This document shows, piece after piece, positions 271-57,808 of a DNA stretch of 64,000 nt (the first letter of the stretch is position 1; every line of letters starts with the position of its first letter). This stretch comes from Escherichia coli phage Wa28, in sequence record LC788710.1, one strand, 5' to 3'. The notes beneath the pieces are model-generated. The model saw nothing but the letters and a program-made list of their open reading frames with translations. It had not been told where the DNA came from and searched no databases. Position numbers and translations under genes: made by a program.

Positions 271-303
271 TTGTGAAACTCCTCTGATTCAATTTATATA
301 AAT

Positions 304-332
304 ATTATATAAAAATTTCAGCGGAAAGTCAA
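304..332 (-). promoter_or_regulatory. sigma70-type early promoter (-35 TTGACT, 17 bp spacer, -10 TATAAT)
   Basis: Reverse complement of 304-332 gives TTGACT-N17-TATAAT followed by conserved ATTTATATAAATTG start region. Confidence 0.6.
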
Positions 333-6937: not shown

Positions 6938-6967
6938 TTCAAAGCCCTCTCATCAATTTATATAAAT

Positions 6968-6996
6968 ATTATATCAAAAGGAGAGGGTTTTAGCAA
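6968..6996 (-). promoter_or_regulatory. early promoter (-35 TTGCTA, 17 bp, -10 TATAAT)
   Basis: Reverse complement gives TTGCTA-N17-TATAAT then ATTTATATAAATTGATGAGAGG and ATG. Confidence 0.7.
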
Positions 6997-9285: not shown

Positions 9286-9315
9286 TTGGTTTCCCTCTCA
9301 TTAATTTATGTAAAT

Positions 9316-9344
9316 ATTATAACAAGAAATAAGAGAGAAGGCAA
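9316..9344 (-). promoter_or_regulatory. early promoter (-35 TTGCCT, -10 TATAAT)
   Basis: Conserved promoter module, reverse complement. Confidence 0.6.
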
Positions 9345-11938: not shown

Positions 11939-12200
11939 AAAATCTTTAAGTTTACTAAGGCTATTAGCTCGGTGTGCGTATTACCCTCAGACATTAGCCA
12001 GTAGAGGATAACCGCTCTTCACAAACCCGATACACTATTCAGTTGCCGCTGAATCTAGTGGACTAATCTAGAACTTATTGCAAAGTATCCCCCGCCATTA
12101 AGGGTCTACTTGCAATTGTGCTTTTTGGCAGCCAGTCCTAGGTCGAGCTAATACCTTAGTGAACTTTGATGAGGATTTCTCCTCATCAATTTATATAAAT

Positions 12201-12229
12201 ATTATAACAAGAAATTAAGCATCAAGCAA
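12201..12229 (-). promoter_or_regulatory. early promoter (-35 TTGCTT, -10 TATAAT) driving downstream noncoding leader and tRNAs
   Basis: Conserved module; overlaps stop of upstream ORF. Confidence 0.6.
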
Positions 12230-17321: not shown

Positions 17322-17351
17322 TCGTTAACTCCTTCATCAATTTATATAACT

Positions 17352-17381
17352 ATTATAACAGAAATCTTAAGTAAAAAGCAA
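17352..17381 (-). promoter_or_regulatory. early promoter (-35 TTGCTT, -10 TATAAT)
   Basis: Conserved module. Confidence 0.6.
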
Positions 17382-24643: not shown

Positions 24644-24673
24644 AATAGCCTCGTCTCATCAATTTAAAAATAT

Positions 24674-24702
24674 ATTATACAGAAAACTAAACTAATTAGC
24701 AA
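24674..24702 (-). promoter_or_regulatory. early promoter
   Basis: Conserved module. Confidence 0.6.
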
Positions 24703-47300: not shown

Positions 47301-47597
47301 ATGAATAAAGCTGAAATTATTGCTCAATGCGAAAAATTTGGTGAGTTTTATCTTCATTACGAAAAACTTCGTCAGAAAGGAACCACGTACCTTCAGGGTA
47401 CGATGGAGTTTGATCCAGCTCAGGATAAATACCTGGCTGAGCGTATTAAACGTGAGCGCATCCGTAAGCCGAAAGAAGATGAAATCCTCGTTTTCTCTCG
47501 TACTAACGATAGCTTCCGTTTCATTCCTGTTGCGAAAGTTCGCCGTGTGACGAGCCTCCAGTCAGAGTTAGATCGTGCTTCTCCAGTAGGCCGATAA
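47301..47597 (+). CDS. hypothetical protein
   Basis: ORF track 98 aa. Confidence 0.5.
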   Translation: MNKAEIIAQCEKFGEFYLHYEKLRQKGTTYLQGTMEFDPAQDKYLAERIKRERIRKPKEDEILVFSRTNDSFRFIPVAKVRRVTSLQSELDRASPVGR

Positions 47598-47607
47598 GAA
47601 ACCAATT

Positions 47608-47629
47608 AGCCCCTATATGGGGCTTTTTG
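47608..47629 (+). terminator. rho-independent terminator
   Basis: AGCCCC-TATAT-GGGGCT then TTTTTG. Confidence 0.6.
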
Positions 47630-47647
47630 TGTATTTGGGATATGTAA

Positions 47648-47956
47648 ATGAGCGATCAGGTAAATCAAAACTATGAAGGACACATTGACGACCAGTCCAT
47701 CATGCTTTGGGAGAAGGACGGGGAACAAGTAAGACTAACCGTATCTGAATTTCGTGGGAATCTATACATGGGAATTCGTTACTGGCTCCAAGATATTACT
47801 GGAGAGTGGTTTCCAACGAAATCCGGCTTCTCTTTTCCTTATACCCTAGAAACTACATCACAGCTATTTTACGCTTTTACGCAAATCCTCAGTGAATCCG
47901 AGGTCTTGCATGAAATACAGAAACGAGCTGAAGAACTCAAAGCCAAGAATGCCTAG
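47648..47956 (+). CDS. hypothetical protein
   Basis: ORF track 102 aa. Confidence 0.5.
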   Translation: MSDQVNQNYEGHIDDQSIMLWEKDGEQVRLTVSEFRGNLYMGIRYWLQDITGEWFPTKSGFSFPYTLETTSQLFYAFTQILSESEVLHEIQKRAEELKAKNA

Positions 47957-47970
47957 TTCTTGGCTTTTTC
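47943..47970 (+). terminator. rho-independent terminator
   Basis: CCAAGAA..TTCTTGG hairpin then CTTTTTCTTT. Confidence 0.55.
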
Positions 47971-47983
47971 TTTATAAATGTAC

Positions 47984-48012
47984 TTGCTTTCGACTCAGTT
48001 TTGTTATATAAT
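47984..48012 (+). promoter_or_regulatory. early promoter (TTGCTT-17bp-TATAAT)
   Basis: Followed by ATTTATATAAATTGATGAGAG and ATG 48044. Confidence 0.65.
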
Positions 48013-48043
48013 ATTTATATAAATTGATGAGAGATATAAATAA

Positions 48044-49015
48044 ATGACTAATGTAAAAGAATTTATTAAACGCTGTCAAGAAGCATATTATCAAGGTATG
48101 TCTTTAATCTCTGACGAAGAATATGATCGTCTGATTAAAAGATTCCCACTAGAGGAAGAAATCGGACCGAAAGGTGATATTCCTCATTTGTATCGTATGT
48201 ATTCTTTGCAGAAAGTCTATTACGGTCGCGGTGATAAAGCTCCATTCAATCCATTAGGTCAGGTTGAAACTGATAAGTTAGATGGTTGTGCGATTTCTCT
48301 ATTATATATTAATGGTGAATTTGTTCAAGCGTTAACTCGTGGTAACGGTATTCTAGGGAATGATGTAACGCATAATGTTAAAATGCTGAACATCCCCAAA
48401 ACTATTTCCCAAAAAGTACCAACTCAAATCACTGGTGAAGTTCTCATTACTAAAGAAGTAGAGAACAAACGTAACTACGCTTCGGGTGCTATTAACCTGA
48501 AAGACAGCGATGATTTCATCCAACGTATTGGTGAAGGTGGTTTAATCTTCGTTGCATACGGTATCCAGTGTTCAGCGGAAACAGTCGGTATTACAGAAGC
48601 CTATTTAAAAGATATGCTTTGGCTAGAGAATGAGAACTTCTTGACAGTTGTTAATGTTCGTTCCTTCTTTAAATGGATTCCGACAGATGGTAAAGTTGTT
48701 CGCATTAACGACAACAATAAATTCTTCCGTGAAGGTTGGACTAATAAATTTCCTCGTGGTGCATTTGCTATTAAAGAGGATGAAGAAGGCGAAATTACCA
48801 CACTTGTTAAAGTTGAATGGCAAGTAGGGGCTTCTGGTAAAGTAACTCCAGTTGGTTATTTCGAACCGGTGATTATTGATGATGCCACAATCGTTAAAGC
48901 AACTCTTAATAACGTTGATTATATTAACGCTCTCGATTTAGAGATCGGTTGCCAGATTCGAGTGATTCGTGCTGGTGGTGTAATCCCTTGTATAGTAGAG
49001 CGAGTATACGACTAA
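48044..49015 (+). CDS. ligA: NAD-dependent DNA ligase, N-terminal (adenylation/OB) part
   Basis: 323 aa; adenylation motif KLDGCAISLLY and LigA-like domain order. Confidence 0.75.
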   Translation: MTNVKEFIKRCQEAYYQGMSLISDEEYDRLIKRFPLEEEIGPKGDIPHLYRMYSLQKVYYGRGDKAPFNPLGQVETDKLDGCAISLLYINGEFVQALTRGNGILGNDVTHNVKMLNIPKTISQKVPTQITGEVLITKEVENKRNYASGAINLKDSDDFIQRIGEGGLIFVAYGIQCSAETVGITEAYLKDMLWLENENFLTVVNVRSFFKWIPTDGKVVRINDNNKFFREGWTNKFPRGAFAIKEDEEGEITTLVKVEWQVGASGKVTPVGYFEPVIIDDATIVKATLNNVDYINALDLEIGCQIRVIRAGGVIPCIVERVYD

Positions 49016-49158
49016 TTCGTAACCCTTTGCTACCCGTTTACCATGTCGGAATTATAAAGTGGTTATTGACATTTTCGCCGCTTAGGTATATACTATTATC
49101 ATTCAGTTGAGGGATAGAAAGTTATGGCGAGGGTAAGCAAAGTTAGTTAAAATTGTAG

Positions 49159-49188
49159 TTGCTAAATGCTTAAATACTTGCTATAATA
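49159..49188 (+). promoter_or_regulatory. early promoter between the two ligase ORFs
   Basis: TTGCTA ... TATAAT then ATTTATATAAATTGATAAGGAAG. Confidence 0.6.
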
Positions 49189-49214
49189 TTTATATAAATT
49201 GATAAGGAAGAAAT

Positions 49215-49997
49215 TTGATGAAAATCGAAATTCCAACACAATGTCCCTCTTGTGGTTCTAAGCTAGATCTTGTCAACGGGCAATTATTCTGTAGGAATAA
49301 GTCCAACTGTCCAGCGCAATCAAGTAAGTTAATCGAGAACTTCTGCACAAAAATGAAGTTAAAGGGCTTTGGCCCGAAAACTATTGAGAAACTGGAGCTG
49401 ACTAAGATCTCAGAACTGTTTTACCTGACCGAAGAAGATTTGGTCGGAGCTGTGGGTAGCAAGGTTGCCACTAAATTGATTAGCGAGTTAAATACTAAGG
49501 TTCGCGGAGACATTGACTTTGGTTCAGTTCTCGGTTCTTTAGGAATTCCTCTTATTGGAGAGGTTGCAGCAAAGAAACTGTCCCAAAATTGCACTAGCTT
49601 CCACGATGTGAAGGCTGACGGCAAGGCTGGAGAAAATTACAAAACCTGGCTAAATTCCCCACAAGGCAAGGATGTTATTGAATTACCGTGGAAATTCTCA
49701 ACTGGTATCCGAGGTGCTAAAGCTGACATCATCATTACAGATGATTTAGTTGCCCAGCCAAATGGAATCACGGTCTGTATTACCGGATCTTTGCAATATT
49801 TTGCAAATCGAACGGATGCAACAAACTATTTAGAAAGTCTAGGGTATACGGTTAAGAAGTCCGTTACCAAAGACGTCAAATACCTAATCTGTGAGGATGA
49901 ATCAAAACGTTCTTCCTCATCTTATAAGAAAGCCGAAACGAATGGGATAGAAATCCTGTCGATTAAAGAACTATTGGAGAAAAATAATAATGTCTAA
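49215..49997 (+). CDS. NAD-dependent DNA ligase, C-terminal (Zn-finger/HhH/BRCT) part
   Basis: 260 aa; CPSCGSKLDLVNGQLFCRNKSNCPAQ zinc finger like LigA; BRCT-like C-terminus. Confidence 0.75.
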   Translation: MMKIEIPTQCPSCGSKLDLVNGQLFCRNKSNCPAQSSKLIENFCTKMKLKGFGPKTIEKLELTKISELFYLTEEDLVGAVGSKVATKLISELNTKVRGDIDFGSVLGSLGIPLIGEVAAKKLSQNCTSFHDVKADGKAGENYKTWLNSPQGKDVIELPWKFSTGIRGAKADIIITDDLVAQPNGITVCITGSLQYFANRTDATNYLESLGYTVKKSVTKDVKYLICEDESKRSSSSYKKAETNGIEILSIKELLEKNNNV

Positions 49998-50757
49998 ACT
50001 GAACTGGAACGTAGAAGGTGTAACCGAGTCTCTGAAAGCAAAAGCCACTGCTCTGGGTGTTGCTGTAATCTCTCAAGAACAAGTAGCTGCTATCGCTGCT
50101 GAACTGGCTACCGAGACTGGTAAAGACGTTACCGCTCGCTCTGTTGGCTCTAAGCTGCGTAAAGAAGGTTTCGAAGTACAGAAAGCTAACGAAGTACAGA
50201 AATCCCCGTGGACTCCTGAGCAGGAAGCTGAACTGGTTGATTTCCTGAACGCTCATGCGGGTCAGTATACTTACGCTGAAATCGCTGCTGCTGTAGCTGG
50301 TGGTCAGTTCGGTGCTAAGCAGGTTCAGGGTAAGATCCTGAGTCTGGAAATGACTGCTTCTGTTAAGCCAACCGAAAAAGCTGCTGCTGTTCGTTCCTTC
50401 ACTCCTGACGAAGAAACTGATTTCGTTAATCAGGTTGTTGCTGGTGCTACTATTGAAGCTATCGCTGCTCACTTCGGTCGCAATATTAAGCAGATCCGTG
50501 GTAAAGCTCTGAGTCTGCTTCGTGAAGGTCGTATCGCTGCTATGCCGGTACAGGAAACTTCAAGTGCTAAAACTCGTGAAGATCTGTTAGAAGGTCTGGA
50601 TCTGGCTAACATGACTGTTGCTGAGATCGCTGAGAAAACTGGTAAGTCTGAGCGCGGTGTTAAATCTATGCTGTCTCGTCGTGGTCTGGTTGCTAAGGAC
50701 TATGATGGTGCCGCTAAGCGTGCTAAACTGGATGCAAAAGCTGCGGCTGCTGAATAA
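49990..50757 (+). CDS. hypothetical protein with four internal repeats, high-expression-like codon usage
   Basis: 255 aa; repeated ~50-aa units with AEIA...G...GK.LS.. pattern. Confidence 0.55.
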   Translation: MSKLNWNVEGVTESLKAKATALGVAVISQEQVAAIAAELATETGKDVTARSVGSKLRKEGFEVQKANEVQKSPWTPEQEAELVDFLNAHAGQYTYAEIAAAVAGGQFGAKQVQGKILSLEMTASVKPTEKAAAVRSFTPDEETDFVNQVVAGATIEAIAAHFGRNIKQIRGKALSLLREGRIAAMPVQETSSAKTREDLLEGLDLANMTVAEIAEKTGKSERGVKSMLSRRGLVAKDYDGAAKRAKLDAKAAAAE

Positions 50758-50773
50758 TCTGGTAAATTAAACC

Positions 50774-50808
50774 TAAGGGGAGGGGGCTATGCTCCTTCCC
50801 CTTTTTGC
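50774..50808 (+). terminator. rho-independent terminator
   Basis: AAGGGGAGGGGG..CTCCTTCCCCTT hairpin then TTTTTGC. Confidence 0.6.
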
Positions 50809-57751: not shown

Positions 57752-57781
57752 TTGTCAAATCCTCCCGATTTAATGTATAAT
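57752..57781 (+). promoter_or_regulatory. early promoter (second of tandem pair)
   Basis: TTGTCA-18bp-TATAAT then ATATACATAAATTGATGAGAG and ATG 57809. Confidence 0.6.
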
Positions 57782-57808
57782 ATATACATAAATTGATGAG
57801 AGACAAAA

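What the first reader, a model, noticed from the sequence alone, without database searches (positions are those of the whole stretch)
48044..49997. NAD-dependent DNA ligase encoded as two ORFs separated by ~200 bp containing a full promoter
The adenylation/OB part (48044-49015) and the Zn-finger/HhH/BRCT part (49215-49997) are separate reading frames. The gap contains a canonical early promoter and SD, so the C-terminal part can be made on its own. Either the ligase works as two subunits or the split is a regulated processing or sequencing feature.
Basis: seen in the sequence. Interest (0 to 1): 0.45.

Follow-up and report, generated by a model that had tools for sequence, protein, structure and literature searches.

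The report
Known two-subunit T5-type phage DNA ligase
This is the split NAD-dependent DNA ligase (ligA plus ligB) already described in phage T5 and its relatives, with two annotated T5 early promoters between the halves, so it is real but ordinary.

Summary
The window is a T5-like phage, 99.9% identical to Phage NBSal002 (Epseptimavirus, Demerecviridae).

- **The two genes.** ligA (48044-49015, 323 aa) carries domain Ia, the adenylation domain and the OB fold. ligB carries the Zn finger, HhH and BRCT domains. Its start is more likely the ATG at 49218 than the TTG at 49215; it ends at 49997 (259 aa).
- **The spacer.** It is 202 bp, with stop codons in all three frames. It holds two sigma-70 promoters, not one. 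They align with the promoters annotated "P-K 28b" and "P-K 28a" in the T5 reference genome.
- **Already known.** T5 annotation names these genes ligA and ligB. [quoted passage not shown] PDB entries 9hu3 and 9i5i hold both chains of the Providencia phage PR1 homologue (E 2e-106 and 1e-79 to the window halves).
- **Ancient split.** The break is at the same OB|Zn-finger boundary in every relative examined. That includes 76 of 76 IMG/VR contigs with enough flank. The gap ranges from about 60 to 1140 bp, and unrelated genes sit in the longer ones.

A sequencing error, frameshift, intron or intein is excluded. Most likely LigA adenylates itself and LigB supplies the DNA clamp. ligB is also transcribed with D5 from its own promoters. 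Interest is low.

The parts
47939..47967 (+). Terminator-like hairpin (12 pairs, then a T-run) closing the upstream transcription unit, just before the ligA promoter
   Evidence: The T5 RefSeq promoter annotation maps immediately downstream of it, at window 47964-48038.
47984..48012 (+). ligA promoter, TTGCTT-17-TATAAT. Its -10 element and downstream 25 nt are repeated at the ligB promoter.
   Evidence: Read from the sequence. Direct repeat D1 links 48007-48031 to 49182-49206 at 96%. It lies inside the promoter feature annotated in T5 at L011 5285-5359, which maps to window 47964-48038. The scan missed it because TTGCTT matches TTGACA at only 3 of 6 positions.
48044..49015 (+). [quoted passage not shown]
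   Evidence: Pfam aden 3e-23 and OB 9e-22. PDB 9hu3_A at E 2.3e-106; the best stretch covers E. coli LigA (2owo) residues 284-390 and ends at query residue 320. 96% identical to T5 ligA, with K78, D80, G81, R99, E132, D215 and K244 invariant across 11 phage ligases.
49016..49217 (+). 202-bp non-coding spacer, closed in all three frames, 32% GC
   Evidence: No Rfam family, no tRNA, and no unusual RNA fold (z = -0.74). It differs from T5 at only a few positions.
49066..49094 (+). Promoter TTGACA-17-TATACT, corresponding to T5 promoter P-K 28b
   Evidence: 11 of 12 matches. It lies inside T5's feature 'promoter P-K 28b', L011 6367-6441, which maps to window 49046-49120. Both hexamers are conserved in Klebsiella phage P5010, although the flanks diverge.
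49159..49187 (+). Promoter TTGCTA-17-TATAAT with an extended TG, corresponding to T5 promoter P-K 28a. It is followed by the conserved early-promoter downstream block ATTTATATAAATTGAT.
   Evidence: It lies inside T5's feature 'promoter P-K 28a', L011 6460-6534, which maps to window 49139-49213. The 22-nt core is one of 9 copies in the window, against 0 expected.
49204..49210 (+). Shine-Dalgarno sequence AAGGAAG, 7 nt before the ligB ATG
   Evidence: Read from the sequence. It is conserved in T5 and in Klebsiella phage P5010.
49218..49997 (+). ligB: DNA-binding subunit (four-Cys Zn finger, HhH region, BRCT), 259 aa
   Evidence: Pfam BRCT 4.5e-8 and HHH_2 2e-4. PDB 9hu3_B at E 1.1e-79; residue 3 aligns with E. 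coli LigA residue 402. TIGR00575 profile positions 388-651.
49990..50757 (+). D5 DNA-binding protein gene. Its ATG overlaps the ligB stop (ATGTCTAA), so the two are probably co-transcribed and translationally coupled.
   Evidence: T5 annotates D5 (T5.118) at the homologous position.
50775..50803 (+). Strong terminator-like hairpin (13 pairs, 8 of them G-C, then a T-run) after D5. It is the likely end of the ligB-D5 transcription unit.

Best explanation
This is the T5-type two-subunit NAD-dependent DNA ligase.

- **Shown.** One ancestral LigA-type ligase is encoded as two genes, broken exactly at the linker between the OB fold and the Zn finger. The break is inherited across Demerecviridae and a large set of environmental relatives.
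- **Inferred from family biochemistry and the deposited two-chain structure.** LigA (domain Ia, NTase, OB) reacts with NAD+ to form the lysyl-AMP intermediate at K78. LigB (Zn finger, HhH, BRCT) binds LigA non-covalently and supplies the DNA-binding clamp needed to engage a nick. Together they seal Okazaki fragments and nicks during phage replication.
- **Inferred transcription.** ligA has its own early promoter, and no terminator follows it, so its transcript can read into ligB. The spacer adds two further early promoters (T5's P-K 28b and P-K 28a) that drive ligB together with the overlapping D5 gene, up to the hairpin at 50775-50803. The spacer is therefore best read as an ordinary intergenic promoter region at the head of the ligB-D5 unit. 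It is not a processing signal.
For: **Identity.** The locus is 99.9% identical to Phage NBSal002 (Epseptimavirus). Its proteins are 96% identical to T5 ligA (T5.116) and ligB (T5.117).

**Domains.**. The two halves tile TIGR00575: the ligA match ends at profile position 378 and ligB covers 388-651. The ligA match ends at E. coli LigA residue 390 and the ligB match begins at residue 402.

**Catalytic residues.** The catalytic motif residues are invariant across 11 phage ligases.

**Solved structure.** PDB 9hu3 and 9i5i hold chain A 'DNA ligase (NAD(+))' and chain B 'DNA ligase subunit B' in the same entries. They match the window halves at E 2e-106 and 1e-79. Chain B is 100% identical to LigB of Providencia phage PR1.

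**Same split everywhere.**
- Klebsiella P5010, gap about 200 bp.
- Providencia PR1, gap about 190 bp.
- Proteus Stubb, 801 bp with a NADAR gene.
- Vibrio pVp-1, X1 and D23, gaps of 449-1135 bp containing genes.
- 76 of 76 IMG/VR loci with enough flank are split and none is fused.
- Only distant phage ligases, at most 33% identical, are single ORFs of 634-668 aa.

**Promoters.**

**Literature.**
[quoted passage not shown] It also shows that a ligase truncated after the OB fold still adenylates itself.
- PMC3632103 lists ligA and ligB as subunits.
- PMC4319617 describes 'A and B subunits'.
Against: - No biochemical paper on the T5-type enzyme, and no primary citation for 9hu3, was found in the held library. 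Joint activity and the subunit interface therefore rest on the existence of the two-chain PDB entries and on family knowledge. I read no activity data.
- Neither half reaches the NCBIfam LigA equivalog cut-off (173 and 106 bits against 444). These are divergent, shortened ligase halves.
- Promoter use in this particular phage is inferred from sequence identity to T5's annotated promoters. It was not measured.
- Read-through from ligA into ligB is inferred only from the absence of a terminator-like site in the spacer.
Confidence: 0.92

Rival explanations
1. Artefact or pseudogene: a single ligase gene broken by a sequencing or assembly error, or by a recent disabling mutation or insertion in this phage.
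For: None specific. It is only the general prior that a split domain architecture can come from frameshift errors.
Against: - About 430 independent phage records match at least 80% of the locus, and every related locus inspected carries the same two-ORF layout.
- The spacer is 202 bp in T5 and the Epseptimavirus genomes and 191-199 bp in Klebsiella and Providencia relatives.
- All three frames of the spacer carry several stops, so no single indel restores one ORF.
- Both halves are under obvious purifying selection, with 36-99% identity across 80 loci and intact motifs.
- Both chains of a homologue were expressed and solved.
Confidence: 0.01
2. The two ORFs are rejoined after transcription or translation, by a group I or II intron, translational bypass or programmed frameshift, or a split intein, to give one full-length ligase.
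For: Phages do carry introns, inteins and one known translational bypass (T4 gene 60; my own knowledge). The halves also abut cleanly at a domain boundary.
Against: - No Rfam intron or any other family matches in 47500-50500 at E up to 1.
- The spacer RNA folds no better than shuffles (z = -0.74).
- The spacer is made of two promoters plus a Shine-Dalgarno sequence and an ATG.
- In relatives the spacer is replaced by 60-1140 bp of unrelated sequence, including whole genes. That is incompatible with a conserved splicing or bypass element.
- LigA ends 2-4 residues after the OB fold and LigB begins 8 residues before the first Zn-finger cysteine. This leaves no room for the roughly 100 and 35 residues of intein halves.
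- The PDB entries contain two separate chains, of 339 and 248 aa.
Confidence: 0.01
3. LigA and LigB have become functionally independent. LigA acts alone as a minimal ligase. LigB, made with D5 from its own strong promoters, serves mainly as a separate DNA- or nick-binding or recruitment factor.
For: - ligB has its own tandem promoters and is coupled to D5 rather than to ligA.
- In several relatives unrelated genes lie between the two.
- An OB-terminated NAD ligase fragment still adenylates itself.
Against: - ligA and ligB co-occur, in the same order and on the same strand, in every locus with enough flank (76 of 76).
- Both chains are deposited together in 9hu3 and 9i5i.
- In single-chain LigA enzymes the Zn-finger and HhH domains are needed for nick binding and sealing (my own knowledge of the E. 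coli LigA mutational literature; not tested here).
Confidence: 0.05

Closest known systems
Bacteriophage T5 ligA/ligB (T5.116/T5.117, NC_005859), with promoters P-K 28b and P-K 28a between them
   Same: Same genes, order, split point, 202-bp spacer and both promoters. The proteins are 96% identical and the spacer differs at only a few positions.
   Different: Only strain-level differences. The window belongs to Epseptimavirus rather than Tequintavirus. In T5, the window has no counterpart to the HNH endonuclease genes hegI and hegJ annotated nearby (not examined further).
Providencia phage PR1/PSTCR5 two-chain NAD-dependent DNA ligase, PDB 9hu3 and 9i5i
   Same: Homologous subunits A and B with the same domain content and boundaries. 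E values are 2e-106 and 1e-79, and tblastn identity is about 55% for both halves. The genomic spacer is about 190 bp with an annotated promoter.
   Different: It comes from another genus (Priunavirus). Its record annotates a terminator right after ligA, and none was detected in the window's spacer. I could not read the primary paper.
Single-chain bacterial LigA (for example E. coli LigA, PDB 2owo) and single-chain phage NAD ligases (Klebsiella phage Miami, Aeromonas phage PhAER-1)
   Same: Same domain order: Ia, NTase, OB, Zn finger, HhH, BRCT. The same catalytic motifs are present.
   Different: They are one polypeptide of 634-671 aa. The T5 type is cut at the OB|Zn-finger linker, lacks about 8 linker positions, and has a shortened NTase and HhH region. 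Identity is at most 33%.
Phage 'genes in pieces': T4 topoisomerase gp39/gp60, and Aeromonas phage Aeh1 NrdA split by the mobE homing endonuclease (my own knowledge)
   Same: An enzyme that is normally one chain is encoded by two adjacent genes, and the products reassemble non-covalently. In some relatives, nuclease-like genes (T5orf172 domain) lie between the pieces.
   Different: No endonuclease gene or remnant is present in this window's spacer. The split is ancient and family-wide rather than a recent insertion. An origin by mobile-element insertion is only a conjecture.

Membership tests
NAD-dependent DNA ligase (LigA family) | Nucleotidyltransferase domain with the motif I lysine (KxDG) and the other catalytic motifs | tested here: met
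   Pfam DNA_ligase_aden, 83 bits against a cut-off of 27. K78-L-D-G, TRGNG (R99), GEV (E132), DG (D215) and K244 are invariant in an alignment with fused phage ligases.
NAD-dependent DNA ligase (LigA family) | N-terminal domain Ia with the NMN-binding residues that give NAD+ specificity (E. coli Y22, H23, D32, Y35, D36) | tested here: met
   The sequence AYYQGMSLISDEEYD carries Y15, Y16, D24, Y27 and D28. Y15, Y27 and D28 are invariant and Y16 nearly so. The correspondence to E. coli numbering comes from my own knowledge; H23 is replaced by Tyr.
NAD-dependent DNA ligase (LigA family) | OB-fold domain after the NTase domain | tested here: met
   Pfam DNA_ligase_OB, 77 bits against a cut-off of 32.9, residues 252-321.
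NAD-dependent DNA ligase (LigA family) | Four-cysteine Zn finger, HhH region and C-terminal BRCT | tested here: met
   LigB carries C9, C12, C25 and C31. BRCT scores 33.7 bits against a cut-off of 21.3. HHH_2 scores only 21.7 against 27. The whole protein aligns to TIGR00575 profile positions 388-651 and to 1dgs residues 400-653.
NAD-dependent DNA ligase (LigA family) | Scores above the curated equivalog cut-off as one protein | tested here: not met
   TIGR00575 gives 173 bits (LigA half) and 106 bits (LigB half) against a cut-off of 444. The enzyme is split and divergent. It is therefore a LigA-family enzyme by domains and motifs, but not an 'equivalog' by NCBI's score.
T5-type (Demerecviridae) split ligase LigA/LigB | Break between the OB fold and the Zn finger, with ligA upstream of ligB on the same strand | tested here: met
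   All family members end LigA 2-4 residues after GVIPxIVE and start LigB at MxIxIPxxCPxCG. 76 of 76 IMG/VR loci and all GenBank relatives inspected are split the same way.
T5-type (Demerecviridae) split ligase LigA/LigB | The two polypeptides form one enzyme | not testable with these tools
   It is supported indirectly. PDB 9hu3 and 9i5i contain both chains of the Providencia phage homologue. No activity data could be read.
T5 early promoters P-K 28b / P-K 28a | Positional and sequence correspondence with the promoters annotated in T5 | tested here: met
   The features at L011 6367-6441 and 6460-6534 map onto window 49046-49120 and 49139-49213. The sequence is identical over both hexamer pairs.
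Group I/II intron, intein or recoding site (considered) | A conserved RNA structure, an in-frame intein, or a conserved bypass element between the halves | tested here: not met
   There is no Rfam match and the fold z-score is -0.74. Stops occur in all frames, the spacer is not conserved across genera, and there are no spare residues at the junction.

The most novel reading that the evidence does not exclude
The split is kept because it uncouples the dosage and timing of the two halves. LigB would be made in excess with D5 from the tandem promoters P-K 28b/a. It could then act on its own as a nick-binding or recruitment protein, for example to control which of the programmed single-strand nicks in T5 DNA are sealed, and form active ligase only where LigA is present. 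The spacer would also serve as a tolerated landing site for accessory genes. NADAR, SET, thioredoxin, radical SAM and T5orf172 nuclease-like genes occupy it in relatives.
Probability: 0.08. Interest if true: 0.45.

Novelty: already known. Interest (0 to 1): 0.1.

Why it matters
It matters little as a discovery. The split ligase has been in the T5 genome annotation since the 2005 genome paper. It is annotated as subunits A and B in many T5-like phage genomes, and a homologue has been solved as a two-chain structure.

The remaining value is modest. The comparison here shows that the break point is invariant across a very wide clade, including many uncultured marine and environmental phages, while the spacer varies from about 60 to 1140 bp and collects unrelated genes. 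This makes the locus a clean natural example of a stably maintained 'gene in pieces'. It also gives a convenient system for asking why a covalent OB-to-Zn-finger link is dispensable in NAD-dependent ligases.

Tried and rejected
- **RNA families.** An Rfam scan of 47500-50500 at E up to 1 gave only two sub-threshold hits outside the spacer. One of them (SpF51) is simply the terminator hairpin at 47608-47624. No intron or sRNA family matched.
- **tRNA.** The tRNA scan found none.
- **RNA folding.** Folding the spacer gave z = -0.74, which is unremarkable.
- **Indels in relatives.** I checked whether they lie in the spacer. They do not. The extra 191-464 bp in Seafire, SP76, 26175II and similar genomes are small ORFs inserted upstream of ligA.
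- **Tiny ORF in the spacer.** The ORF ATGGCGAGGGTAAGCAAAGTTAGTTAA (49125-49151, 8 codons) loses its ATG in Klebsiella phage P5010, so I rejected it.
- **Literature.** Five searches for a paper on the split ligase structure or biochemistry found nothing beyond genome notes and PMC1684257. A search for the P-K28 promoter papers found nothing relevant. The T5 genome paper itself is not held.
- **Searches not run.** I did not run the large protein searches or structure prediction. PDB homologues at E of 1e-79 or better and 80 IMG/VR loci already answered the questions.

Full report
**What the window is.** The 2.2 kb around the finding is 99.9% identical to Phage NBSal002 (Epseptimavirus, Demerecviridae). 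It is 90-99% identical to more than 400 T5-like Salmonella and Escherichia phage genomes. [quoted passage not shown]

**Check of the observation.** The ORF list gives ligA at 48044-49015 (323 aa) and an ORF at 49215-49997.
- ligA matches Pfam DNA_ligase_aden (3e-23) and DNA_ligase_OB (9e-22).
- The second ORF matches BRCT (4.5e-8) and, weakly, HHH_2. It opens with a four-cysteine Zn-finger motif.
- Against NCBIfam's LigA model TIGR00575 (652 positions), the ligA match ends at position 378 and the second ORF covers positions 388-651.
- Against E. coli LigA (2owo), the ligA match ends at residue 390 and the second begins at residue 402.
- The halves therefore tile a complete LigA, with only about 8 linker positions missing between the OB fold and the Zn finger.
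- The spacer is 202 bp (49016-49217). The two genes are in different frames, every frame of the spacer contains several stops, and the ligB frame opens only 12 nt before its ATG.
GenBank annotations use it, and the solved homologue begins MKIQIPT.

**The spacer.** The consensus scan finds two promoters, TTGACA-17-TATACT (49066-49094) and TTGCTA-17-TATAAT (49159-49187). AAGGAAG lies 7 nt before the ATG.
- The scan is not significant for the region as a whole. The independent evidence is stronger.
- The T5 reference genome annotates 'promoter P-K 28b' and 'promoter P-K 28a' between ligA (T5.116) and ligB (T5.117).
- The window's spacer differs from T5's at only a few positions, so these features map to window 49046-49120 and 49139-49213.
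- Both hexamer pairs are also kept in Klebsiella phage P5010, whose flanks have diverged.
- The -10 element plus downstream block of P-K 28a (TATAATATTTATATAAATTGAT) is identical to that of the ligA promoter (48007-48028).
- The same block occurs 9 times in the window at up to 3 mismatches, against 0 expected. It is a recurrent promoter core; I take it to be the T5 early-promoter core.
- There is no Rfam family, no tRNA and no unusual RNA fold in the spacer.

**Transcription context.**
- A terminator-like hairpin (47939-47967) precedes the ligA promoter, TTGCTT-17-TATAAT at 47984-48012.
- No terminator-like site follows ligA.
- The ligB stop overlaps the D5 start (ATGTCTAA, 49990-49997).
- A strong terminator-like hairpin follows D5 at 50775-50803.
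- The simplest reading, which is an inference, is that ligA transcripts read through, while P-K 28b/a add transcription of a ligB-D5 unit.

**How old and how general is the split?** Every Demerecviridae genome inspected has it. In an alignment, every LigA ends 2-4 residues after GVIPxIVE and every LigB starts MxIxIPxxCPxCG.

| Phage | ligA-ligB gap | Genes in the gap |
|---|---|---|
| T5 | 202 bp | none |
| Klebsiella P5010 | about 200 bp | none |
| Providencia PR1 | about 190 bp | none |
| Proteus Stubb | 801 bp | NADAR-domain gene |
| Vibrio pVp-1 | 1135 bp | 73-aa ORF and a DprA-like gene |
| Vibrio X1 and D23 | 449-687 bp | two small ORFs each |

- A scan of IMG/VR with a LigB alignment returned 80 loci at 36-99% identity.
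- In 76 of them ligA lies upstream on the same strand, with its own stop. The other 4 are cut by contig ends. None is fused.
- The distance from the ligA stop to ligB ranges from 60 to 1140 bp.
- The longer gaps contain unrelated genes: SET domain, thioredoxin, radical SAM, 2OG-Fe(II) oxygenase, and two T5orf172-domain (GIY-YIG-like) proteins.
- Single-ORF phage NAD ligases (634-668 aa) appear only at 33% identity or less.
- The split therefore looks like one ancient event that has been kept ever since. The spacer content is free to vary.

**What is already known.**
[quoted passage not shown] It shows that an NAD ligase truncated after the OB fold still forms the enzyme-adenylate.
- PMC3632103 and PMC4319617 list the A and B subunits.
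- PDB entries 9hu3 and 9i5i each contain a 339-aa 'DNA ligase (NAD(+))' chain and a 248-aa 'DNA ligase subunit B' chain. They match the window's halves at E 2.3e-106 and 1.1e-79.
- Chain B is 100% identical to LigB of Providencia phage PR1/PSTCR5.
- I could not find the paper behind those entries in the held library.

**Mechanism.**
- Shown here: the two genes encode complementary, motif-complete halves of a LigA-type ligase. K78 in KLDG, R99, E132, D215 and K244 are invariant, and the domain Ia residues Y15, Y16, D24, Y27 and D28 are present.
- Inferred from family knowledge, from the truncation result in PMC1684257 and from the two-chain PDB entries: LigA adenylates itself with NAD+. LigB supplies the Zn-finger, HhH and BRCT DNA clamp through non-covalent association. 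The pair seals nicks during phage replication.

**Rivals.**
- A sequencing artefact or pseudogene is excluded by the conservation across hundreds of genomes and by the closed frames.
- Intron, intein, frameshift or bypass is excluded for four reasons: no RNA family matches, the spacer is not conserved across genera, the junction has no spare residues, and the PDB entries hold separate chains.
- Functional independence of LigB remains possible as an add-on, but nothing found here supports it directly.

**Verdict.** The feature is real and was correctly described, but it is already known. Interest is low.

Noticed in passing
window 288-309, 6952-6973, 9300-9321, 12185-12206, 17336-17357, 24658-24679 (all - strand); 48007-48028, 49182-49203, 57776-57797 (all + strand): A 22-nt block, TATAATATTTATATAAATTGAT (-10 hexamer plus downstream region), occurs 9 times at up to 3 mismatches, against 0 expected. 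The copies are on the - strand in the first 25 kb and on the + strand from 48 kb onward. This looks like a shared early-promoter core that marks two divergently transcribed gene blocks.
   Followed up: partly
window 47957-48043, compared with L002 643-843, L003 644-916 and L004 642-1109: Relatives carry one or two extra small ORFs (about 66 and 90 aa) between the PC4-like regulator gene and ligA. This window has none. The length differences among T5-like genomes at this locus lie here, not in the ligA-ligB spacer.
   Followed up: partly
L006 1692-2309 (Proteus phage Stubb): A NADAR-domain gene (Pfam 1.6e-31), from an NAD/ADP-ribose-related family, sits exactly between the two halves of the NAD-dependent ligase.
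   Followed up: no
L072 4559-4927 and L082 3399-4127 (IMG/VR contigs): In two environmental relatives the ligA-ligB gap holds T5orf172-domain (GIY-YIG-like) proteins. One has treble-clef Zn-finger repeats. The E values are weak (6e-4 and 3e-3). This hints that mobile nucleases use or used this junction. Other gaps hold SET, thioredoxin, radical SAM and 2OG-Fe(II) oxygenase genes.
   Followed up: partly
window 50775-50803: A 13-bp G+C-rich hairpin followed by a T-run lies after D5. It contains the ATG at 50789 that T5's annotation uses, at the homologous position, as the start of the D6 (DnaB-like helicase) gene. Either the hairpin masks that start codon, or the true D6 start lies further downstream.
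   Followed up: no
one search hit list (MG065642.1 'Campylobacter phage A148'; OR847284.1 'Listeria phage LM 4-11-1'): GenBank records labelled as Campylobacter and Listeria phages are 95-98% identical to this enterobacterial T5-like locus. Their host labels are probably wrong, or the records are contaminated.
   Followed up: no
window 47597-47628: The sub-threshold Rfam hit to SpF51 sRNA (26.5 bits against a gathering score of 50) coincides with a bidirectional terminator-like hairpin at 47608-47624. It is probably just a terminator.
   Followed up: no
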